DNA from: a virus | Virus genome (UHGV): UHGV-0055581 | Length of the DNA stretch: 40,858 nucleotides | Direction: 5' to 3' (one strand) | Shown here: positions 17,411 through 40,282 of the stretch, in pieces | Layout of the letters: each line of letters opens with the position of its first letter | Position numbering within the stretch: position 1 is the stretch's first letter | Translations under genes and position numbers: made by a program | Notes under the pieces: model-generated | Told to the model about the DNA's origin: nothing | What the model saw: only the letters and a program-made list of their open reading frames with translations | The model's database searches: none

Positions 17411-17734
17411 ATGAAGATGCCAGAAAAACATGACCTGTTAGCCGCCATTCTCGCGGCAAAGGAACAAGGCATCGGGGCAATCCTTGCGTTTGCAATGGCG
17501 TACCTTCGCGGCAGATATAATGGCGGTGCGTTTACAAAAACAGTAATCGACGCAACGATGTGCGCCATTATCGCCTGGTTCATTCGTGACCTTCTCGACT
17601 TCGCCGGACTAAGTAGCAATCTCGCTTATATAACGAGCGTGTTCATCGGCTACATCGGTACTGACTCGATTGGTTCGCTTATCAAACGCTTCGCTGCTAA
17701 AAAAGCCGGAGTAGAAGATGGTGGAAATCAATAA
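17411..17734 (+). CDS. S: Holin/antiholin S (dual start Met1-Lys2-Met3)
   Basis: [70 protein letters not shown]... matches lambda S by recollection. Confidence 0.95.
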
Positions 17735-18194
17735 TCAACGTAAGGCGTTCCTCGATATGCTGGCGTGGTCAGAAGGAACAGATAACGGACGGCAGAAAAC
17801 CAGAAATCACGGTTATGATGTTATTGTCGGTGGCGAGCTGTTCACTGATTACTCCGATCACCCCCGCAAACTTGTCACGCTAAATCCGAAACTCAAATCA
17901 ACAGCCGCCGGACGTTACCAGCTTCTTTCCCGTTGGTGGGATGCCTATCGTAAGCAGCTTGGCCTGAAAGACTTCTCTCCGAAAAGCCAGGACGCTGTGG
18001 CACTGCAACAGATTAAAGAGCGTGGCGCTTTACCGATGATTGATCGCGGTGATATTCGTCAGGCTATCGACCGTTGCAGCAATATCTGGGCTTCACTGCC
18101 TGGCGCTGGTTATGGTCAGTTCGAGCATAAGGCTGACAGCCTGATTGCAAAATTCAAAGAGGCTGGCGGAACGGTCAGAGAGATTGAGGTATGA
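17718..18194 (+). CDS. R: Endolysin R (lytic transglycosylase)
   Basis: [51 protein letters not shown]... matches lambda R by recollection. Confidence 0.95.
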
Positions 18195-18628
18195 GCAGAG
18201 TCGCCGCGATTATTTATGCTCTGGTTATCTGCATCATCGTCTGCCTGTCATGGGCTGTTAATCATTACCGTGATAACGCCACCGCCTACAAAGAGCAGCG
18301 CGATAAAGCCATATCCATCATCGCTGATATGCAGAAGCGGCAACGTGATGTAGCAGAACTCGACGCCAGATACACAAAGGAGCTTGCTGATGCTAACGCG
18401 ACTATCGAAAGTCTCCGTGCTGATGTTTCTGCTGGGCGTAAGCGCCTGCAAGTCGCCGCCACCTGTGCAAAGTCAACGACCGGAGCCAGCGGCATGGGCG
18501 ATGGAGAAAGCCCAAGACTTACAGCAGATGCTGAACTCAATTATTACCGTCTCCGAAGTGGAATCGACAAGATAACCGCGCAGGTTAACTACCTGCAGGA
18601 GTACATCAGGACGCAATGCCTGAAATAA
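18191..18628 (+). CDS. Rz: Spanin inner-membrane subunit Rz
   Basis: N-terminal TM segment plus coiled coil; strong similarity to lambda Rz by recollection. Confidence 0.9.
18390..18575 (+). CDS. Rz1: Spanin outer-membrane lipoprotein Rz1 (embedded in Rz, +1 frame)
   Basis: Signal sequence with lipobox-like LLGVSAC followed by a Pro-rich region ([16 protein letters not shown]); fully embedded in Rz as in lambda. Confidence 0.75.
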
Positions 18629-31111: not shown

Positions 31112-32494
31112 TTGGCTACATGGCAACAGGCTGGTAATTCAGGCGCGCTTCTTGCCGGGTTAGGCGGCATGAACTCCAACGCTCCAAGAGCAAGTGATGC
31201 AGACGCCACGCTTGCATACATTCGACAGAATAACGAGATGGAGCGTTCAGGACGTAATAACGTTGGCTTGCAGGCTTTGCAGGGCATTTCATCTGTCATG
31301 GATATGTATAAGCAGATGGATCAGCAGAAGCGACAGCAAGAGTTTCAGCAGGCTTATGCTGATGCATATACATCTGGTGACCGCGATGCAATGCGAAAAC
31401 TGGCATCACAGTATCCTGAGCAGTTTGACGCTGTAAGAAACGGCATGAAATTTGTCGATGAAGACCAGCGTTCCACTGTCGGCACACTGGCAGCAAGTGC
31501 CAGACTGGCAGCTTCATCTCCAGAAGCCATGATGTCATGGTTGCAGAACAACTCATCTGAGCTTACTCGTGCCGGAGTAGACCCTCTGGATGTGGCGAAA
31601 ATGTATCAGCAGAATCCTTCAGGATTTGGTGAGTTTGTTGATCACCTTGGGATGGCTGCTCTTGGTCCGATTGATTACTTCAATGTTCAGGACAAGATGG
31701 CTGTTCGTGAAATTGACCGAGGCAGGCTGGCAGAGACAATCCGCAGCAATCAGGCTGGTGAAGCACTTCAGGCGAGAGGGCAAAACCTTTCCTATCAGTC
31801 AGCAATGACTGGACACGGACTTGCAGCAGAAAGACTGGCACTTGATAAGCAGAAATTCGGTTTTGAAGTACAACAGGCACAAAAGAAGGCCGATGAACTT
31901 ATTAATGCTGCGCCAAAACTATCCGTGAACATGGAAAAGGCTATAGAAAAATCAGCAGGTGATGCGGCAGCTAGTCGTAATGCTGCCGATTCAATGACAA
32001 CGCTTGCTGACACGCTGGAGAAGGAGAAGCCAACTCCTGGTTTGTTCGGTAACGCTGAAAATATGTTCACTAAGCTTACGGGGCAAGATAACTACCTCCG
32101 AGATATGCGGATTAGATTCAACCAACTAGCCAATGCGCAGGCAACCAAGCTTCTCCCTCCCGGCCCTGCATCAGATAAGGATATTGAGTTTGCAAGGAAA
32201 GGCATTCCAAGCGAAACGGATAATCCAATGGTCATGGCTCGATGGTTAAGGGGTATGGCAAAAATGGAAAGTAATAACGCGAAGTTCAACGAGTTTAGGT
32301 CAGAGTGGATGAGTGCAAACGGCAGCCCAGGACAATCTGATCGCAACCGAAACATCATGGGGATGGATGTTAAGAAGGGTGAATCATTGAACTCTGCGGC
32401 AAAACGTTTTCTTTCCTCAAGTTATGGCGATAGCCAACCTCAACAGCAATTGTCCGATGACGAATTAATTAGCAAATATCTCGGAGGGCAGTAA
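31112..32494 (+). CDS. Ejection protein (P22 gp20-like)
   Basis: 460 aa; TTG start with GGAGG RBS 6 nt upstream; conserved order. Confidence 0.7.
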
Positions 32495-34605
32495 TGGCCT
32501 ATAGTCGTGAACAGTTGATGACGGCGTTAAGGAATGCTGATGCTGCCGGCGATACTGAGGGAGCACGTCGCATTGCTCAGATGCTGTCTTCTGGTGATCA
32601 ATCCACTCAAAACCAATCGCAGCCAGAAGAACAATCTCTGGTAGGAAAAGCCACTGACTGGCTCACTGGTGGTCAAAGCGCAGGGCAAATTGCAGAACAG
32701 GCTGGCCGTGGTCTGGTAAACATACCATTTGACGTGTTACAGGGTGGTGCAAGCCTGATTAATGCAATCAGTCAGGGGCTTGGTGGTCCCAAGGTTTTGG
32801 ATGATGTCTATCGTCCAGTCGATCGACCGACAGACCCTTACGCGCAAGTCGGTGAAACAATTGGTGGGTATCTCCTGCCAATTGGCACAGCGGCAAAAGC
32901 TGCTGGAGCGCCAGCAAAGCTCGCTGGAGATATCGGTTCCGCAGGAAACATGATTGCAGGTTCTCTTGCTGATGCTGCAAATCAGGAGGGAGACTTTGCA
33001 CAAAATGCTGCCATTAACGGTGGTATCAATATTGGTGCTCAAGGCGTTCTTTCAGGTGTCGGGCGCGTTATTGCGCCAAGGGTTTCACAGGCTCTTGGTG
33101 GTGCAGCACTGAATTCTGCTAATGATGTTTCCAGGATGGCAAAGTCAGGTGCTGGGCGTCAGTCAATTGCCAGTCAGGCCGCTAATGTGTCCGAAGATGT
33201 AGCAAAAGCGGCTGAGTCTGCTGGAATTGATATAAACGCATTAACACCAGGAATGCGATCTGGAAGTCGTGGAATTGCACAAGCCGAAGGCGCATTGGCA
33301 TCAACACCAGGAATTGTTCAGGACGCCCATCAGGCAGCATTTGACGAAATATCATCAAAGTTAAGTCGAAACCTTGATGAATTTGGGGCCGCATCTGGAA
33401 CGGCATCAGAAAAAAGTGCGGCTATAAAACAAAGGATTCTTCAAAATCTTGATCAGATGAAGGATGCCGAGCGCGCGGCATGGGATGACGTGCGGTCAAC
33501 GATGCCAAATCAAAAAGCAAGAATGCTAAATGGTAATGCCGTTATTCAGGCAGAGCGATCTGCTGGCATACCGCTTACTCCTGAAATGAAACAGTTTGTT
33601 CAGGCAAACAATCAAGGTGGAGTAACATTTGATGGCATGAAAGCATGGAGAGCGAAATTTGCTGATGCGGAGCAAAAATATAAGCGTAGCGGAGAGGCAA
33701 ATGCGGCAAGGAGAGCAGGGGAAATACGCCGGGCAATTACTGATGATATGCGCACAATGGCGGAAAACGGCGGATTTCTTGATGACTGGCAAAAAGCTAA
33801 TGATCTGTCTAAAGCGAGGTTATCAGCACAAGAGAGTGCAGAGTCTGTTTTCGGGCGTGATTTGGCAACAGATGCACTGATTACGAATGGAGTAAAATCC
33901 CTTCAATCATCGTCAGCTAAAGGTCTTAATGGCCCTGCTGGATTCCATTCTATGATCCGCGCGCTGCCAGAATCAGAGCGTGTTCCTGCTATATCATCAA
34001 TGTTGCAGGATGCTATCTCGCATGGTGTACGTGGTGGTAAATCTGATGCAGCAGGAATTAACCATATCGCAGGGATACTTACCCCACAAAATGTAAAAGC
34101 CATTAGCAGATATTCCTCAGAACTTGGAAGAATTGCTGATGCATATGGCACTCTTGCAAGAGCAGCAGTGAAGCCTCAGCAGTATATTGAAAGAACAGGG
34201 AGAACTGCCAATGTGCTACGCGATCTGGATGCTGGTTTATCCAACGTCACATCAACAGTGTTAAATGCAATTGCCAACTCAACATCAGGTGCCATTGTTG
34301 GTGGAGCAGGAGGGGGCATTGCAGGCGCTGCCGCAGGTGCTTTAGTTGGCGCCGGGTTAAAAGGTGCTGTATCTAAAATTGCCACCACGCGTAGCGGTCG
34401 ATATGCGATAGAGAAAGCAGTTCAGGAAGCCACGAAAGCAGTAAGAGCTGGCGGAAGTAAAGAAGCATTAGCGGCGGCGGAACGCAGATTTATGGCAAAT
34501 AAAGCCGCCGTAAAAGCAATACGTGATGCAGTTGGAAACGAAGAGTTCAATCGCTTAGCGAGGGCTGGCATTGTAGCGTCGCTAAGCGGAATGGCACAGG
34601 AGTAA
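32494..34605 (+). CDS. Ejection protein (P22 gp16-like), longer than the P22 protein I recall
   Basis: 703 aa; TAATG overlap with upstream gene; Ala/Gly-rich; conserved order. Confidence 0.7.
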
Positions 34606-34977
34606 TTAATCATCCATGGATGGATTGAGCTTATCTCGTGTTGATGTGGCGATTTGTCCTACATTCCTAAGCCAAGATTTCAAATCCTTGATATTGTCAT
34701 TGATTTCATGAATATCTTCTTTTTTTAATCTGTTAATATTATTCTCAATAATTTCAATGGATTGCTCAATATCAGATATAGTGAATGATAGTTTGTTCTT
34801 CTCATCTTTTATTGAGTTTTTAAGTGCTTCGTTCTCAGTCTTGAGGTCAGATATCTTTTGTTTTAAAGATGCCAGTTGGTACTGAACCACAATGAGTGCG
34901 ATAGCTATCACGATAACTGTTGTATACACACCAACCTCCTTAGTTTTGCGCAGGATACCAGATGAAATGGTCTTCAA
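34606..34977 (-). CDS. Membrane-anchored coiled-coil protein, candidate superinfection-exclusion factor (sieA position)
   Basis: 123 aa; N-terminal TM helix (VYTTVIVIAIALIVV) then heptad coiled coil; strongly AT-rich; TTG start overlapping the stop of the upstream Mnt-like gene; no good SD. Confidence 0.5.
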   Translation of the reverse strand: MKTISSGILRKTKEVGVYTTVIVIAIALIVVQYQLASLKQKISDLKTENEALKNSIKDEKNKLSFTISDIEQSIEIIENNINRLKKEDIHEINDNIKDLKSWLRNVGQIATSTRDKLNPSMDD

Positions 34978-35357
34978 AACTGGATGTCTTCAGCATCATC
35001 GCCAAAAACATTTTTATATGCATCTTGCCTTAAGCTCCTGAGAGCTTGATACATTTGCGAATGAGAACTGATGCTATCTAGTAAGTAGAAAATTGCTTTG
35101 ACTAGCTCATTCTCCCACCGCTCAAACTCTTCTTTGTTTGATGGCCTGTTCCCGGAGAGGTTTGAGTAAATCTTCATAATCCTGGAGTTATCAACCTCAG
35201 CAGGCACCGGAGACTTCAATGCATCATCAATGATAAACACTAGTTCTGTATTCATTGATCTGCCGTTTTCCTTTGCTCTTAAGGCTATAGCATCCCGCAT
35301 TCCTGCCGGAAGCCTGATATTGAACCTATCCATTTCATGACTAGGGAACTTGCTCAT
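34974..35357 (-). CDS. Mnt-like ribbon-helix-helix repressor with extended C-terminal domain
   Basis: 127 aa; FNIRLPAGMRDAIALRAKENGRSMNTELVFIIDDALKSPVP resembles P22 Mnt FNFRMPMEVREKLKFRAEANGRSMNSELLQIVQDALSKPSPV (recollection); divergent from arc. Confidence 0.65.
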   Translation of the reverse strand: MSKFPSHEMDRFNIRLPAGMRDAIALRAKENGRSMNTELVFIIDDALKSPVPAEVDNSRIMKIYSNLSGNRPSNKEEFERWENELVKAIFYLLDSISSHSQMYQALRSLRQDAYKNVFGDDAEDIQF

Positions 35358-35413
35358 ATGACCTCAACGTAAAGATGTTCGCTAAACAATAGCACCAACT
35401 TGACATCAAAATA

Positions 35414-35453
35414 AATGATACCAACTTGGTTCTAGAACCAAGTTGGTATCATT
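35414..35453. promoter_or_regulatory. 40-bp perfect palindrome (putative operator) between the divergent mnt-like and arc genes
   Basis: AATGATACCAACTTGGTTCTAGAACCAAGTTGGTATCATT; a third half-site-like copy ACCAACTTG at 35393..35401 overlapping a TTGACA hexamer. Confidence 0.7.
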
Positions 35454-35469
35454 GTGGAGGGGATTACTT

Positions 35470-35643
35470 ATGAAAGATGTGCTTTACACAGGTCGTAAAA
35501 GTCAAAGTTTCCAGCTTCGTTTGCCAGCGCGAATGAAGGAGGAGATTAGACGTGTTGCTGAAATGGATGGAATTTCTATCAACTCTGCGATTGTGCAGCG
35601 ACTGGCTAAAAGCCTGAGAGAGGAAAGAGCTAATGCCCAGTAA
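35470..35643 (+). CDS. arc: Arc-like ribbon-helix-helix repressor
   Basis: 57 aa; FQLRLPARMKEEIRRVAEMDGISINSAIVQRL resembles P22 Arc FNLRWPREVLDLVRKVAEENGRSVNSEIYQRV (recollection); GGAGG RBS. Confidence 0.7.
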   Translation: MKDVLYTGRKSQSFQLRLPARMKEEIRRVAEMDGISINSAIVQRLAKSLREERANAQ

Positions 35644-36343
35644 AAATAGTGAAGCCCAGCAGTGCGCGAACACAAACTGGGCCTCTATGTCAGTAACCGT
35701 ATGCAAGGAAACTAACGTGAATATTGTAGCAAAATCAGATTACAACTTCCACGGAGTTGAGTTGGTGCCCACCCGTGATATGCATGGTGTTTGGTTTACA
35801 TCATCTAATATTGCATCTGCACTTAAATACGCAAATAGTCGTGCAGTAACAATGATTTATAACAAGTATAGCGATGAGTTTAGCGCCGGAATGACTCAGG
35901 TACTCGAAGTGAGTACCTCAGGAAATTATCGCAAAAAAGTGCGAGTTTTCTCACTACGCGGTGCCCACCTAATCGCGATGTTTGCTCGCACTCCGGTAGC
36001 CAAAGAGTTCCGCCGCTGGGTGCTGGATATTTTGGATCGGCAGGCAGAATGCTCACCGATTGCAAAACAGTTTACTGACGAAGAGCTGGTTAATCTCTGC
36101 TACTTACAATTGTGGATGGAGAAGAGTCAACAAATGTGCAAACACATCTACCCAGGAATGAAGCAAATTTGTTCTGAGCTTTCAGGAAGGATTTACGATA
36201 TCGCATATGAGACTCGCTATATGTCAGAAGAAACCAAGAAATCACTTCTTCGTGAAGTGAAGAATCTTGATACCAACAATTTTGTCGTAAAGAACGCTCA
36301 GCCAATGCTGGCAAAACTGCGCGGCGAGGAATGGATTCATTGA
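35633..36343 (+). CDS. ant: Antirepressor with Bro-N-type N-terminal domain
   Basis: 236 aa; N-terminal FHGVELVPTRDMHGVWFTSSNIASALKY...VFSLRGAHLIAMFARTPVAKEFRRWVLDIL resembles the Bro-N domain (recollection); overlaps the arc 3' end as in the P22 arc-ant operon. Confidence 0.65.
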   Translation: MPSKNSEAQQCANTNWASMSVTVCKETNVNIVAKSDYNFHGVELVPTRDMHGVWFTSSNIASALKYANSRAVTMIYNKYSDEFSAGMTQVLEVSTSGNYRKKVRVFSLRGAHLIAMFARTPVAKEFRRWVLDILDRQAECSPIAKQFTDEELVNLCYLQLWMEKSQQMCKHIYPGMKQICSELSGRIYDIAYETRYMSEETKKSLLREVKNLDTNNFVVKNAQPMLAKLRGEEWIH

Positions 36344-36431
36344 TTGGTGCGCCGGACGGCGCAAAAAGAAAACCGCCAGTGTGCTGCTGGCGGCCTATGT
36401 CACACCCTTACTACCACATAAGGAATGCCTA

Positions 36432-37160
36432 ATGACTTTTAAGAATGTAGCAAACATCGGATCCGTTGTCACGGATAAAACCATTGACAGCCAGCGCCTG
36501 CTTGAGATGGTCAATCATGCTCGTAGACAGTGCGGGGAAAAAGAAGTCCGCAATAACGACTTTATTGCACGCATTAAGGATGAACTTGAAGGTGAGCACT
36601 ACGAAATTTTCGTAGTTCAAAAATCAAACAAGACAAGTTCTGAAAAAGTTGTTATGTCAATTAAGCAAGCCCTTCGAGTGGCTGCTCGTGAATCTAAAGC
36701 TGTTCGCCGCTCACTGGTAGACCAACTTGAAAGTATGCAAGAAGCGCACATTAAAAGCGGTAAATCAGCGAGTGGACTTGTTGAGTATCGTCAAGCGCGA
36801 ACATTGAAAATGACGGTTGAAGCTGTTACCAATCTGTTCGATCTGATGCCAAATCTTGCGCCTGAGGCAAAGCAGACAGCGGCAGCAAGTATAATCAACC
36901 CGCTCGTTGGTTTTAATGCAATACCTCTTCCGGCAATAGAAGAGCATTACTACTCAGCAGGGGAGGTTGCAGAGCAGCTTGGAGTAACGGCCAACAAGAT
37001 TGGTCGCATTGCTAACGCAAACAACCTCAAAACTGAGCAGTACGGGAAGTTCTTCCTGGATAAATCGGCGCATTCCAGCAAACAGGTAGAGGCGTTTCGT
37101 TACAATTCTGAAGGCGTTAAAGCACTACAACACCTGCTACATGGCTCAAATGTGGCGTAA
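36432..37160 (+). CDS. Hypothetical protein (242 aa) downstream of ant
   Basis: ATG with AAGGAA RBS; no confident family; upstream in-frame extension to 36381 is possible. Confidence 0.5.
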   Translation: MTFKNVANIGSVVTDKTIDSQRLLEMVNHARRQCGEKEVRNNDFIARIKDELEGEHYEIFVVQKSNKTSSEKVVMSIKQALRVAARESKAVRRSLVDQLESMQEAHIKSGKSASGLVEYRQARTLKMTVEAVTNLFDLMPNLAPEAKQTAAASIINPLVGFNAIPLPAIEEHYYSAGEVAEQLGVTANKIGRIANANNLKTEQYGKFFLDKSAHSSKQVEAFRYNSEGVKALQHLLHGSNVA

Positions 37161-37175
37161 CATTTTATAATGAAA

Positions 37176-37206
37176 ACTAAACCCGCTTAATCGCGGGTTT
37201 TTTCTT
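37176..37206 (+). terminator. Rho-independent terminator (possibly bidirectional)
   Basis: AACCCGC-TTAATC-GCGGGTT hairpin followed by TTTTTCTTT. Confidence 0.7.
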
Positions 37207-37444
37207 TCCTTAGAATTTCAGCCGCAACTTCTTTTACTCGTTCCGAGATTAATGAGGCCAGCCTCTCTTCTTCATCACGATACCCGCTTACAGGTGATGG
37301 TTTGGAGAGTGATTCTTCCATCGTAGCCACAATTTCGGAATTGATAGACCTGTTATTCATTTTTGCACGCTGCTTAATCTTAGCGTGCAACTCGTGTGTA
37401 AGCCTCAAGTGGAACTGCGCCTCATCGTATTTGCTGTACATCAT
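37187..37444 (-). CDS. mnt: Mnt-family repressor (second copy, P22 Mnt-like length)
   Basis: 85 aa; FHLRLTHELHAKIKQRAKMNNRSINSEIVATMEESLSKPSPVSGYRDEEERLA resembles P22 Mnt by recollection; start at the internal Met of the longer ORF. Confidence 0.7.
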   Translation of the reverse strand: MMYSKYDEAQFHLRLTHELHAKIKQRAKMNNRSINSEIVATMEESLSKPSPVSGYRDEEERLASLISERVKEVAAEILRKEKTRD

Positions 37445-37576
37445 CAATGCCTCACCAAATGGGTGGAATGGCATCGTAAAACCTACTGTACAAATCAACA
37501 ATCGTACCGTTTCGGTATGTAACAAATGCCAACCGTAGCCATGCTGCGGCGATTCCTTGTATCTGGAGCAAATTAA

Positions 37577-40282
37577 ATGACAGACATTACAGCCAATGTT
37601 GTAGTGAGCATGCCTTCGCAACTCTTCACTATGGCGCGTTCTTTTAAAGCCGTAGCTAATGGCAAAATTTATATCGGTAAAATTGACACTGACCCGGTAA
37701 ATCCTGATAACCAGATTCAGGTCTATGTTGGGAACGAAGATGGTTCTCACGTTCCTGTTGCACAGCCAATCGTCATCAATGCCGCTGGGTATCCAGTATA
37801 TAACGGACAGATTGCCAAATTCGTAACCGTGCAAGGCCATTCTATGGCTGTTTACGATGCTTATGGCACTCAGCAGTTTTATTTCCCAAATGTATTAAAA
37901 TACGATCCAGATCAGTTTGGCCCAGACTTCAAAGAGCAGTTATCTCAATCAGGAGCATACATTAATGATGATTCAAAAGGTGATGCATTAATTGGGGTAA
38001 GGCAGCCATTTACCGGGGCTGTAACTATAACTCAGCATGAAAACAATGCTCTTTTCTTAAATGTAAAACAATTCGGAGCAATTGGGGATGGGAAATATCA
38101 TCCATTATCTGAGAGGTTTTCTTCAATTTCTGAAGCAAAATCCTTATATCCTTTTGTTGACTCATTATCTCAGTCAATAGACTGGGCCGCGTGGCAAGCT
38201 GCCCTTAACACAGGAAAGGTTATTTATGGTACTGATAATGCGTATGTAATAACGGATACGTTAACACCTGTTTCTGGTGGTGGGATAATTGGTCTTGGTG
38301 TGGGCAAATGGGTCTCCGGATATACTGCAACATTTGCTCCTGATATTACCACAGGGACCACATTCCTGATGTACGGGGTAGGAAATAAAAAATATACTGT
38401 AGATTGTGTTTCTAATATGGATGTTAGTGGTGGTGTGGTTTCTAATCCATCTTCCGAAGACCCGTATACAACAACAGCACCTGCGTCATCATATGATTTA
38501 TTGGATTTTACTAACGGTGATGCTAATGGGACTACAAGAGCCACGCTTAAACCATTCTCTGCCGCAATATTGATGCCTGAGACAGGATGTGTTCGCCTTG
38601 AGAACTTTCGTGTTGTTCCATATTTCAATGGGCTGGATGGTTATAAAGACATTGCAAATACCGGTCTTGGCGATGAGTGGGATGTAGGTATTTGGTCACG
38701 TGCGTCTTTTGGCAATGAATACCGCAATTTGCAGGTGGTTGGATACTGGCGCAAGACGGCACTTTTAAAAACGAACATTCCTGTATCTGGCACGCTGGCT
38801 GCTCAGGGCGAGGATGAAAACTATTATCACTGTAGATTCCAGGGATTCAAGGGTGTTTCGATCCGCGCCAATGATGTATTCCGAATTACAGCGGTAACGT
38901 CCAGCACTATCGAAATCCCATGGTCAGCAAGCCACACCTTCGAAACGTCCGGAGTTTTAAGATCTGGAGGCAGGAATTTCACTTATTCAGGATTATCCGT
39001 ATCCGGTGATAAGTTAGTATTTACTGGAGTGTCTAACGCTTCTGAGGCAACAGTAGGTTCTACTATACGGCGAAATGACATAGATAACTTTGGTATGGCG
39101 GGAACGCAATTTTTCGATTGCTACATTACCAGCCTGTATCACCACACACATCTGCTTGCCACATCGCAATACCTGTCTCAACCATTCAGCCGACCATCAG
39201 AGTGTATGGAGGTTTCAGGGGAACCAGTTCGCGGTGTACAGGTACATGCAGGAACCATTCAGGGATGGGATGATGTTCTTATTCATCTGCATGACTGTGG
39301 AAATATGAACTTTTACAGTACATATTTCGAAAGCCAGCAAGCATATGTAACTATAAATGGTGGTAATGCTATTGGTTATGGAGCACGTATGATAGCTTCC
39401 CGGCAATCAACAAGCTCATTACCATATGCAGCAGGGAATACACGAGTGCTTAGAATGGTCGGGTGCTCTGAAGGCAATGGCGTTGACTGGGGTCCTGTAT
39501 TTAACAACTATACAGGAGGAAGATATAATTCTGGAGACGGTGTATTTAACCCCCGCGATGCATTTATAGACCATAAATCTCTTCCTGAGCAGTCAGGAGG
39601 TGAGTCAAGACTCGTATCACAAAAAGGAAATGCCAGAGTAGTATGTGGTGTTGGTAAAACTGTACTGCTTGGACCAACGTCAGGAGATTGTAATTTACAG
39701 AGTAATACCGGAAGTTTAAATATTAGAAGTGGGATAAGAGTAAGAGTCGGTCACGCTGATGGAACAGACTGGTGGTTGGCAGATGCTAATAAAATAGCTC
39801 CTGTTGATGATAATGTTAAAGCTATTGGACAGCCATCAAACAGATGCTCTGTTATCTATGCAGGAACCGGGTCAATCAATACATCAGATGAAACTCTTAA
39901 AACAAGATATGATATTCTTAATGCAGAGCGTGATGCCGCTATTGAAATAAAGTCAGTCATCTATAAATTTAAATTTAATGACTCAATTAATCACAAAGGA
40001 ATTGAGTCGTCCAGGTATCATTTTGGCGTTGGCGCTCAAACCGTAGGGGATATTCTTAGAAAGCATGGTTTAAATCTTGAGCAATATGCTTTTTGGTGTT
40101 ACGATGAATGGCCTGACGTATGGGATGAAGAGGTGATAACTGAAGAGAGCACAGATCCTGATACAGGTGAGAAAATTTATTCTCAATATAAAACAGGAGA
40201 TATGATTCTTGTAAAAAAAGCAGGAGGACGCTACGGAATTCGTTATGACGAATTGGCTATGTTTATATTAATGGCAATGTAG
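37577..40282 (+). CDS. Tailspike: P22-type head-binding N-terminal domain, divergent receptor-binding domain, C-terminal chaperone-like region
   Basis: N-terminal ~110 aa ([34 protein letters not shown]...VLKYDPDQ) match the P22 tailspike by recollection; remainder AT-rich and unrelated; C-terminus has an SDETLK motif like the cleavage-site motif of endosialidase-type chaperone domains. Confidence 0.9.

What the first reader, a model, noticed from the sequence alone, without database searches (positions are those of the whole stretch)
34606..35357. AT-rich membrane/coiled-coil protein coupled to an extended Mnt-like repressor in the sieA position
Between the last ejection gene and the tailspike, P22-like phages carry sieA and the immI region. 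Here a 127-aa Mnt-like RHH protein with a ~75-aa C-terminal extension is followed, with stop/start overlap, by a 123-aa ORF with one N-terminal TM helix and a long heptad coiled coil. The segment is far more AT-rich than the flanking structural genes, so it looks horizontally acquired. The start of the membrane ORF is TTG with no good SD, so its expression may depend on coupling to the upstream gene. This is a plausible uncharacterised injection-blocking or abortive-infection module.
Basis: partly seen in the sequence, partly recalled or inferred. Interest (0 to 1): 0.75.

Follow-up and report, generated by a model that had tools for sequence, protein, structure and literature searches.

The report
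hkcB moron beside Mnt-like repressor
The two small genes are real but already catalogued: one is an Mnt-type repressor, and the other is hkcB, a conserved single-pass membrane protein of unknown function that sits where phage P22 keeps its superinfection-exclusion gene sieA. The two genes are neighbours by mosaic accident, not a coupled defence module.

Summary
Both minus-strand ORFs exist as described. The window is a complete P22-like prophage.

**The "123-aa TTG membrane ORF" is hkcB.**
- It matches HK620 hkcB, CUS-3 hkcB and phrog_5962, and is 100% identical in protein to ε34 gp14.
- Its conserved start is GTG at 34929, giving 107 aa. An invariant AAGGAGG Shine-Dalgarno sequence lies 5 nt upstream.
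- The TTG/stop overlap is a by-product of a mosaic junction at about 34960. There is a 44-nt gap to the RHH gene.

**The 127-aa RHH protein** is an Arc-family, Mnt-position repressor of an Oslo-type immI unit (RHH127 | arc–ant–ant). It has a helical C-terminal domain unrelated to Mnt's.

**The pair is not a module.**
- hkcB occurs full-length in 72 of 5,426 E. coli genomes, and RHH127 in 6. They are directly adjacent in only 2.
- RHH127 also precedes three unrelated cargo genes.

**Link to sieA.**
- hkcB shares with P22 sieA the same slot, strand, upstream PsieA region, SD and GTG start (83/85 nt identical in HK620).
- Here only the proximal 31 nt survive, so hkcB is probably co-transcribed with the RHH gene.

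**Function.** hkcB is under purifying selection (dN/dS 0.1–0.3), AT-rich (33% GC) and restricted to P22-like prophages. A SieA-like exclusion role is plausible but untested.

Interest is modest.

The parts
34606..34929 (-). hkcB: a 107-aa protein with an N-terminal transmembrane segment (residues ~2-19), a continuous helix to residue 101, and a conserved C-terminal tail W-x-x-NVG-x-IATSTRDK-x-NPS-x-D. Start GTG at 34929-34927; stop TAA at 34608-34606, abutting the gene 16 stop.
   Evidence: phrog_5962 E 6.8e-59, with the profile covering residues 17-123 of the 123-aa ORF. 99.5% nt identity to ε34 gene 14 and 99.3% to CUS-3 hkcB. Family alignment. dN/dS 0.1-0.3. AlphaFold2 single helix.
34930..34960 (-). 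31-nt translation-initiation cassette TGGTATCCTGCGCAAAACTAAGGAGGTTGGT. The SD AAGGAGG is at 34941-34935, with a 5-nt spacer. The cassette is shared with P22 sieA and with other cargo genes of this slot. The mosaic junction lies at 34960/34961.
   Evidence: Alignments. 30/32 nt identical to the region upstream of P22 sieA, against 9/53 further upstream.
34975..34977 (-). TTG that opens the longest ORF (123 aa) and overlaps the RHH stop codon (TTGA). It is not conserved, has no SD, and was created by the junction.
   Evidence: N-terminal extensions of over-called homologues are unrelated to one another.
34974..35357 (-). RHH127: an Arc-family ribbon-helix-helix repressor in the Mnt position. RHH at residues ~10-48, linker, then helices 59-69 and 75-121.
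   Evidence: Pfam Arc E 1.1e-16. phrog_3178 E 2.6e-59. PDB 1mnt N-domain E 2.3e-8, residues 10-53 only. About 15 full-length family clusters across Enterobacterales. AlphaFold2 pLDDT 78.
35386..35453 (.). Divergent control region. It holds a 40-bp perfect palindrome at 35414-35453 (core TTGGTTCTAGAACCAA), a third half-site at 35386-35402, an invariant TTGACA at 35400-35405 (rightward), and ACAATAGCA (TGCTATTGT leftward, extended -10-like) at 35386-35394.
   Evidence: the repeat finder I1 and I3. Conservation from phage Oslo to E. coli prophages. Promoter assignments are inference; the consensus scan did not call them.
35470..35643 (+). Arc-like repressor (57 aa), the first gene of the rightward operon.
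   Evidence: Pfam Arc E 1.3e-11. PGAP 174-nt CDS in MB06231.
35633..36343 (+). Antirepressor 1 (Bro-N + P22AR_C domains). The exact start is uncertain.
   Evidence: Pfam PF10548 and PF02498. phrog_245 E 1.9e-63.
36432..37160 (+). Second antirepressor-family gene (242 aa).
   Evidence: phrog_1726 E 2e-100 from residue 18 of the ORF. PGAP 729-nt CDS.
37187..37441 (-). True full-length Mnt homologue (84 aa), next to the tailspike gene.
   Evidence: PDB 1mnt E 9.1e-16 over residues 6-77. phrog_795.
32494..34605 (+). Gene 16 ejection protein of the HK620/CUS-3 type. It is convergent with hkcB with zero spacing.
   Evidence: 98% identical to CUS-3 gp16 and 75% to HK620 gp16.

Best explanation
**Shown**
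- The region is the 'ant moron' of a P22-like prophage and contains two independent units that happen to be joined.
- Unit 1 is an Oslo-type immunity-I module. The 127-aa RHH protein (a Mnt analogue) is transcribed leftward, and arc-ant-ant rightward, from a palindromic operator region.
- Unit 2 is hkcB. It is a 107-aa bitopic membrane protein translated from a conserved GTG with an AAGGAGG SD. It occupies exactly the slot, strand and initiation cassette that P22 uses for sieA.
- The same cassette also precedes a lipoprotein gene and a signal-peptide protein gene in sibling prophages. The slot is therefore a swap site for envelope-targeted cargo.
- In this window the distal PsieA region is replaced by the end of the RHH gene, and no terminator intervenes.

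**Inferred**
- hkcB is co-transcribed with the Mnt-like repressor gene, so it is expressed in the lysogen.
- HkcB oligomerises through its long helix in the inner membrane and presents its strongly conserved C-terminal tail to a partner.
- The most likely role is SieA-like superinfection exclusion: interference with the ejection-protein conduit of incoming P22-like phages. I put this role at about 0.35. The genomic and anatomical part I hold at about 0.9.
For: - **Identity with hkcB.** phrog_5962 E 6.8e-59. 99% nt identity to ε34 gene 14 and CUS-3 hkcB, annotated 107 aa. PGAP gives 107 aa in MB06231.
- **Start codon.** SD plus GTG are invariant across loci. One homologue has ATG at the same codon. 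The ε34 upstream frame is closed.
- **Real gene.** dN/dS is 0.1-0.3. The C-terminal 25 residues have pN 0.05-0.19 with pS 0.36-0.84.
- **Not a module.** Searches give 2 adjacent, 72 hkcB and 6 RHH127 genomes of 5,426. RHH127 with the identical junction precedes other cargo.
- **sieA equivalence.** P22 sieA has the same position and strand. The 85 nt upstream of sieA is 83/85 identical upstream of HK620 and 19KM hkcB. That 85-bp fragment plus sieA sufficed for >10^7-fold exclusion in PMC10883804.
- **Envelope cargo.** All four cargo types are envelope proteins.
- **Recurring arrangement.** A distant HkcB relative (P0022) lies directly downstream of a true mnt gene, co-oriented.
- **No terminator.** The scan finds none in the 44-nt gap.
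- **Family range.** An exhaustive HMM search finds the family only as a handful of clusters (13 hits). Every member whose surroundings could be read lay beside gene 16 in a P22-like prophage; the two remaining contigs were too short to tell.
Against: - There are no expression or phenotype data for hkcB in any phage. The literature search found only 'unknown function'.
- HkcB has no sequence or architectural similarity to SieA. It has one TM segment where SieA has several, and it lacks the FxRYPxEAxxFNK motif.
- No PADLOC, Pfam or NCBIfam model is matched above noise.
- The positive-inside rule puts the helix in the cytoplasm: no K/R before the TM in 14/14 members and 2-4 after it. That fits less obviously with blocking a periplasmic conduit.
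- The PsieA promoter is itself only 'putative'. The 31 nt retained here might still hold a promoter element (TGGTATCCT), so co-transcription is not proven.
Confidence: 0.6

Rival explanations
1. The RHH gene and the membrane ORF form a dedicated, translationally coupled two-gene defence cassette (injection-blocking, abortive infection or toxin-antitoxin-like), with the membrane ORF starting at the TTG.
For: The TTG overlaps the RHH stop codon. RHH proteins are common antitoxins and autoregulators. The same juxtaposition exists in E. coli MB06231 and, with an HK620-type hkcB allele, in MDR_56. A true mnt gene directly precedes a distant hkcB relative in L015.
Against: - The conserved start is the downstream GTG/ATG with an SD. 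The N-terminal extension is not conserved and is impossible in ε34.
- 70 of the 72 E. coli genomes with this hkcB allele lack the adjacent RHH127.
- RHH127 occurs with other cargo behind the same junction.
- RHH127 is paired with a divergent arc-ant operon and an operator palindrome that is conserved in phage Oslo, which has no hkcB.
Confidence: 0.05
2. HkcB is a lysogenic-conversion or host-fitness membrane protein unrelated to phage exclusion. Examples would be modulation of envelope or divisome functions, as with the bitopic coiled-coil proteins FtsB/FtsL/DivIC.
For: - Its architecture resembles FtsB/FtsL: a TM segment directly followed by a coiled coil.
- There are sub-threshold DivIC/FtsL hits: 21.5 bits against a 28.9 cut-off, in 6 of 14 members.
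- Other cargo in the slot (lipoprotein, YobH-family) also has no known anti-phage role.
Against: - The DivIC/FtsL hits are no stronger than hits to eukaryotic coiled-coil families.
- The N-terminal cytoplasmic basic tail typical of FtsB/FtsL is absent.
- The family is found next to gene 16 in P22-like prophages in every locus whose surroundings could be read, and the exhaustive search finds only a handful of clusters.
- The only characterised occupant of the slot is an exclusion protein.
Confidence: 0.25
3. HkcB serves the phage's own lytic cycle together with gp16, for example as an ejection or assembly accessory or as self-immunity to its own conduit.
For: - hkcB abuts the gene 16 stop codon (0-4 nt) in all 14 loci examined. 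This holds even where the protein is only 57% identical to the window's (P0018) or is a distant relative found only by profile search (P0022 and P0024).
- Every hkcB locus whose gp16 was compared carries the same gp16 family, at 65-98% identity.
Against: - It lies on the strand opposite to the late operon.
- It is absent from P22 and from prophages whose gp16 is 99% identical, where a lipoprotein gene takes its place.
- The zero-spacing linkage can be explained by hitch-hiking.
Confidence: 0.08
4. The membrane ORF is a chance open reading frame in AT-rich DNA.
For: It has a non-ATG start, is AT-rich, has no known domain, and is antisense to the direction of late transcription.
Against: It is conserved over roughly 50% protein divergence with dN/dS of 0.1-0.3. 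It has a conserved SD and start, and a PHROG family.
Confidence: 0.01

Closest known systems
hkcB of coliphage HK620 / CUS-3 hkcB / ε34 gene 14 (phrog_5962, function unknown)
   Same: It is the same gene family. The protein is 100% identical to ε34 gp14 and differs from CUS-3 HkcB at two residues (about 98%). BLASTP gives 50% identity to HK620 HkcB over the whole protein and tblastn gives 56.5% over residues 16-107. Length (107-109 aa), GTG start, SD, and position abutting gene 16 on the opposite strand all match.
   Different: The upstream neighbour differs. Here it is an RHH127 gene fused 44 nt upstream in place of the PsieA-type region (HK620), gene 15 (ε34) or two hypothetical genes (CUS-3).
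P22 SieA superinfection-exclusion protein (phrog_7745; Leavitt et al. 2024, PMC10883804)
   Same: It has the same slot between gene 16 and the immI genes, the same strand, and the same upstream region, SD and GTG start (83/85 nt identical in HK620; the proximal 31 nt here). Both are inner-membrane, prophage-type moron genes restricted to P22-like phages.
   Different: There is no sequence similarity. HkcB has one TM segment plus a long helix, where SieA is a multi-pass protein of about 164 aa. It lacks the FxRYPxEAxxFNK motif. No exclusion phenotype has been shown.
P22 Mnt repressor (PDB 1mnt) and the immI mnt/arc/ant circuit
   Same: The RHH127 N-domain aligns with the Mnt N-domain (E 2.3e-8). 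The gene is divergent from an arc-ant operon across an operator palindrome.
   Different: The C-terminal domain (residues 51-127; helices 59-69 and 75-121) is unrelated to Mnt's tetramerisation domain, and there is no PF11423 hit. The module is of the phage Oslo type (75% nt identity). The window also keeps a true Mnt homologue at 37187-37441. No sar-like RNA was found.
Single-TM moron exclusion proteins such as HK97 gp15 or T4 Sp (recalled from the literature, not tested here)
   Same: They are small, prophage- or early-expressed, N-terminally anchored envelope proteins encoded as AT-rich morons near virion genes.
   Different: No homology was detected. HkcB's predicted topology (N-out/C-in) may differ. 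The resemblance is a lead only.
Mosaic 'boundary sequences' of lambdoid/P22-like phages (annotated as bsq in the CUS-3 record)
   Same: A short conserved sequence, here the 31-nt SD cassette, sits at the point where alternative genes are exchanged.
   Different: I did not check whether this particular cassette is among the published boundary sequences.

Membership tests
HkcB family (phrog_5962) | Significant full-length match to the family profile | tested here: met
   E 6.8e-59, profile positions 3-109 of 109. The window's HkcB is 53-91% identical to the other 13 members of the family alignment.
HkcB family (phrog_5962) | About 107-aa protein starting at a conserved GTG/ATG behind an AAGGAGG SD | tested here: met
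   GTG at 34929; SD at 34941-34935.
HkcB family (phrog_5962) | Gene convergent with, and abutting, the stop codon of the P22-type gene 16 | tested here: met
   34605/34606 in the window. The same holds in 13 other loci, with 0-4 nt spacing.
HkcB family (phrog_5962) | Conserved C-terminal tail W-x-x-NVG-x-IATSTRDK-x-NPS | tested here: met
   Invariant columns W86, N89, V90, G91, A94, S96, D99, K100, P103 and S104.
SieA superinfection exclusion (P22 types A-C) | Sequence similarity to SieA / phrog_7745 | tested here: not met
   BLASTP against P22 SieA gives only an 18-residue match at E 0.047. phrog_7745 is not among the 25 PHROG hits shown of 38, whereas P22 SieA itself hits it at 9e-109.
SieA superinfection exclusion (P22 types A-C) | Multi-pass inner-membrane protein of about 160-200 aa with the FxRYPxEAxxFNK motif | tested here: not met
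   There is a single hydrophobic segment and one helix over residues 2-101. The motif is absent from the sequence. Definition taken from PMC10883804.
SieA superinfection exclusion (P22 types A-C) | Located between genes 16 and 9 of a P22-like prophage, leftward, behind the PsieA/SD region | tested here: met
   Only the proximal 31 nt of the upstream region is present in this window.
SieA superinfection exclusion (P22 types A-C) | Blocks DNA injection by P22-like phages | not testable with these tools
   Needs plating and K+ efflux assays.
P22 Mnt repressor | Arc/Mnt-type RHH DNA-binding domain | tested here: met
   PF03869 E 1.1e-16. 1mnt E 2.3e-8.
P22 Mnt repressor | Mnt C-terminal tetramerisation domain (PF11423 Repressor_Mnt) | tested here: not met
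   There is no PF11423 hit. The PDB alignment stops at residue 53. The window's other RHH gene (37187-37441) aligns with Mnt over residues 6-77.
P22 Mnt repressor | Divergent from an arc-ant operon with an operator in between; represses Pant | tested here: inconclusive
   The gene arrangement and a conserved palindrome are present. Binding and repression were not testable.
Two-gene defence / toxin-antitoxin-like cassette | The two genes co-occur and are inherited together | tested here: not met
   2 adjacent, against 72 hkcB and 6 RHH127 genomes of 5,426. Cargo is swapped behind RHH127.
Two-gene defence / toxin-antitoxin-like cassette | Match to a known defence-system protein model | tested here: not met
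   PADLOC gives only coiled-coil noise at E >= 6e-4 for HkcB and nothing for RHH127.
Rz-like i-spanin | Significant profile match and location in the lysis cassette | tested here: not met
   Rz-like PHROG hits reach only E about 1e-3. The window has its own holin, endolysin and Rz at 17411-18628, with phrog_13 at E 3.4e-71.
FtsB/FtsL/DivIC | Profile score above the curated cut-off | tested here: not met
   DivIC scores 21.5 bits against 28.9. FtsL scores 15-16 bits against 42-55. Six of 14 members hit, on a par with unrelated coiled-coil families.

The most novel reading that the evidence does not exclude
HkcB is a second, structurally unrelated superinfection-exclusion protein of P22-like phages. 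It would be plugged in behind the same PsieA/SD/GTG cassette as sieA, anchored by one TM helix, and would use its conserved C-terminal tail to disable the HK620/CUS-3-type gp16-gp20 conduit. More generally, the 31-nt cassette would mark a swap site where P22-like prophages exchange alternative envelope-level defence genes: SieA, HkcB, a lipoprotein and a secreted protein.
Probability: 0.3. Interest if true: 0.55.

Novelty: already known. Interest (0 to 1): 0.28.

Why it matters
SieA is the only characterised injection-blocking protein of P22-like phages, and according to PMC10883804 two thirds of sequenced P22-like phages lack it. hkcB sits in the same slot behind the same expression signals. 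That makes it a cheap candidate to test for an alternative exclusion mechanism, and the other cargo genes that share the cassette can be tested the same way. The result would also bear on how the gp7/gp20/gp16 trans-envelope conduit can be blocked. As it stands, the finding adds no new gene and no new system. Both genes and their juxtaposition are already present and annotated in public genomes.

Tried and rejected
- **Known domains or defence models for HkcB.** Pfam, NCBIfam, PADLOC and PHROGs gave only sub-threshold coiled-coil noise apart from phrog_5962.
- **Remote homology.** A family profile searched exhaustively against 1.84 billion representatives gave only 13 hits. A few are short true relatives (P0022, P0024); the rest are long coiled-coil proteins.
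- **Structure.** The AlphaFold2 model of HkcB is a single helix, so a fold search would be meaningless and was not run. The RHH127 model searched against the PDB matched only the RHH domain (AmrZ, Arc), with all E >= 0.2.
- **Spanin hypothesis.** Rejected, because the window has its own Rz.
- **FtsB/DivIC mimic.** Not supported.
- **Consensus promoter scan.** It found no sigma-70-like site for either gene. My promoter assignments (TGCTATTGT, TTGACA, TGGTATCCT) are therefore by eye plus conservation only.
- **Rfam.** No hits over the whole window, so no sar-like RNA.
- **Literature.** Searches for hkcB and 'ant moron' found only the ε34 genome paper, which calls it a gene of unknown function.
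- **Heptad test.** A single-register test was only weakly significant.
Full report
**1. What is there**

The window is a complete P22-like prophage:
- integrase at 129-1202
- holin, endolysin and Rz at 17411-18628
- ejection genes, ending with gene 16 at 32494-34605
- tailspike at 37577-40282

Between gene 16 and the tailspike lie, in order:
- a leftward 123-aa TTG ORF (34606-34977)
- a leftward 127-aa ATG ORF (34974-35357)
- a rightward arc-like gene (35470-35643)
- two antirepressor-family genes (35633-36343 and 36432-37160)
- a leftward 84-aa gene (37187-37441)

The TTG does overlap the upstream TGA.

**2. The membrane ORF is hkcB, and it starts at a GTG, not the TTG**

- The ORF matches phrog_5962 at E 6.8e-59. 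The profile covers only residues 17-123.
- At the DNA level, 34400-34960 is 99.5% identical to phage ε34 (genes 13/14) and 99.3% to CUS-3 (hkcB). Homology stops abruptly at about 34960.
- Those records, and PGAP in the near-identical E. coli MB06231 prophage, annotate a 107-aa protein.
- In an alignment of six loci, the sequence CTAAGGAGGTTGGTGTG is almost invariant. The only change is one SD base in CUS-3, which reads AAGGGGG. It comprises the SD, a 5-nt spacer and GTG at 34929. Further upstream the sequences are unrelated.
- In ε34 the upstream frame is closed by TAG and contains no start codon.
- In 14 family proteins the N-terminus is M/V-Y/F-T-T. Over-called versions carry mutually unrelated extensions.
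- One relative uses ATG at the same codon.
- The TTG 'start' is therefore a by-product of the mosaic junction. The real gene is separated from the RHH stop codon by 44 nt.

**3. hkcB is a real, constrained gene**

- Divergent pairs give dN/dS of 0.1-0.3.
- Constraint is strongest in the last 25 residues: pN 0.05-0.19 with pS 0.36-0.84. Selection is therefore on the protein, not the DNA.
- AlphaFold2 predicts one uninterrupted helix over residues 2-101, pLDDT 80, followed by a non-helical tail.
- Residues 2-19 are hydrophobic. The rest is amphipathic with local heptad periodicity but shifting register.
- All 14 members lack K/R before the hydrophobic segment and have 2-4 K/R just after it. The positive-inside rule therefore weakly predicts N-out/C-in. 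This is an inference and needs fusions to test.
- GC content is 33%, against 49% for gene 16.

**4. Family range and context**

- The word-indexed search found 21 clusters. An exhaustive profile search of 1.84 billion representatives found 13 hits, only 5 of them below 1e-10.
- Every locus examined places the gene convergent with, and 0-4 nt from, the stop codon of a gp16 of the HK620/CUS-3 type. These loci come from E. coli, Salmonella, Leclercia, one metagenome contig and one unidentified genome.
- A 99%-identical gp16 is followed instead by a lipoprotein gene in E. coli 1344_LBHALD. hkcB is therefore dispensable cargo.

**5. The RHH protein**

- Residues 7-50 are an Arc/Mnt-type RHH (PF03869, E 1.1e-16).
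- The best solved relative is the Mnt N-domain (E 2.3e-8), and the alignment ends at residue 53.
- The C-terminal 75 residues form a helix at 59-69 and a 47-residue helix at 75-121. They are conserved in about 15 full-length clusters across Enterobacterales, annotated 'Arc family DNA-binding protein'.
- There is no PF11423 (Mnt C-domain) match. By contrast, the window's 84-aa gene at 37187-37441 aligns with Mnt over its whole length (E 9e-16).
- RHH127 is divergent from arc-ant across a control region conserved at 75% nt identity with Salmonella phage Oslo, which has no hkcB.
- That region holds a palindrome (core TTGGTTCTAGAACCAA, a perfect 40 bp in this window) and a third half-site.
- RHH127 is thus the Mnt-position repressor of its own immI-type unit.

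**6. The pair is not a module**

- In 5,426 complete E. coli genomes, the hkcB allele is present at 80% coverage or more in 72.
- RHH127 is present at full length in 6.
- The contiguous arrangement is present in 2, MB06231 and MDR_56. MDR_56 carries an HK620-type hkcB allele.
- The junction sequence CATCCAGTTTTGAAGACCATTTCATC|TGGTATCC is identical upstream of three unrelated cargo genes (hkcB in two alleles, a ~129-aa signal-peptide protein followed by a YobH-family gene in E7476, and the 161-aa lipoprotein in 1344_LBHALD).
- The conserved unit is RHH127 plus the cassette. The cargo is swapped at the start codon.

**7. Link to sieA**

- P22 sieA lies in the same slot and orientation.
- The 85 nt upstream of the sieA GTG is 83/85 identical to the 85 nt upstream of hkcB in HK620 and in E. 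coli 19KM2326N. This stretch includes the annotated putative PsieA, the SD and the GTG.
- Leavitt et al. (PMC10883804) showed that sieA with exactly 85 bp of upstream DNA, in single copy, excludes P22 by more than 10^7-fold.
- hkcB in those phages therefore sits behind sequence that was sufficient for sieA expression.
- In the present window only the proximal 31 nt are kept (30/32 identical). The distal 53 nt are the end of the RHH127 gene (9/53 identical).
- No terminator-like structure lies in the 44-nt gap.
- I infer that hkcB is read through from the RHH127 promoter. It would then be expressed in the lysogen, as mnt and sieA are in P22.
- A distant relative (P0022) is likewise placed 36 nt downstream of a true mnt gene.

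**8. Function**

- HkcB shows no similarity to SieA or to any defence, spanin or divisome model above noise.
- The evidence for a SieA-like role is circumstantial:
  - the slot and expression signals are the same
  - it is a membrane protein
  - it has moron-like composition
  - it is restricted to P22-like prophages
  - its neighbours in the slot are all envelope proteins
- I rate that role at about 0.35, another lysogen or envelope role at about 0.25, and a role in the phage's own cycle at about 0.08.

**9. Verdict**

The ORFs, domain architecture, composition and position are right. The start codon and the coupling are wrong.
- The genes are already known and annotated as hypothetical.
- The useful outcome is a corrected gene model and a sharpened, directly testable hypothesis that hkcB is an alternative occupant of the sieA expression slot.

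Noticed in passing
window 34930-34960; L018 3832-3862; L006 ~3504-3534; L014 ~3200-3230: A 31-nt cassette (TGGTATCCTGC-N-CAAAACTAAGGAGG...) followed by a start codon precedes four unrelated envelope-protein genes in the slot after gene 16. These are P22 sieA, hkcB, a signal-peptide protein (phrog_2651) and a lipoprotein (phrog_6067). It looks like a cargo swap site. For the phrog_2651 protein, PGAP calls an internal ATG, whereas the cassette's GTG would give it a proper signal peptide.
   Followed up: partly
window 35414-35453: This is a perfect 40-bp palindrome between RHH127 and arc. Relatives (Oslo, E7476, 19KM2326N, 1344_LBHALD) share only the core, and their left arm reads GGTGTTAAATTGG. 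The window differs at 5 positions, which make the palindrome perfect and remove the likely -10 (TAAATT) of the rightward arc-ant promoter. The terminator scan also flags the palindrome.
   Followed up: partly
window 37187-37441 (-) and 34974-35357 (-): The prophage carries two Mnt-like genes. One is a full-length Mnt homologue next to the tailspike, as in phages that keep only mnt. The other is RHH127 of an inserted Oslo-type immI unit. The 217-aa longest ORF at 37187-37840 is an over-extension that overlaps the tailspike start.
   Followed up: partly
window 35633-37160: Two different antirepressor-family genes lie in tandem downstream of arc: Bro-N/P22AR_C (phrog_245), then phrog_1726. Arc and the first ant overlap, and Rfam detected no sar-like antisense RNA.
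   Followed up: no
window 34603-34608 and 13 other loci: The gene 16 and hkcB stop codons abut as the palindrome TAATTA with no intergenic space and no terminator. Late transcription must therefore run antisense through hkcB. This zero spacing is conserved even where the protein is only 57% identical to the window's (P0018) or is a distant relative found only by profile search (P0022, P0024).
   Followed up: partly
L011 5645-5977; L009 1783-2106: Other P22-like prophages carry further small membrane-anchored coiled-coil proteins next to hkcB. One is a 110-aa protein with an N-terminal TM and a coiled coil (phrog_8100) directly upstream of hkcB. Another is a 107-aa coiled-coil protein with a C-terminal TM.
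   Followed up: no
L015 6319-8931: The gp16 next to the distant HkcB relative P0022 is 870 aa and carries an N-terminal SLT (lytic transglycosylase) domain fused to a P22_gp16 domain.
   Followed up: no
PMC10883804: The SieA paper states that the CUS-3 and HK620 gp16 proteins are only 26% identical. Here the window's gp16 is 98% identical to CUS-3 gp16 and 75% identical to HK620 gp16, which does not fit that figure.
   Followed up: no
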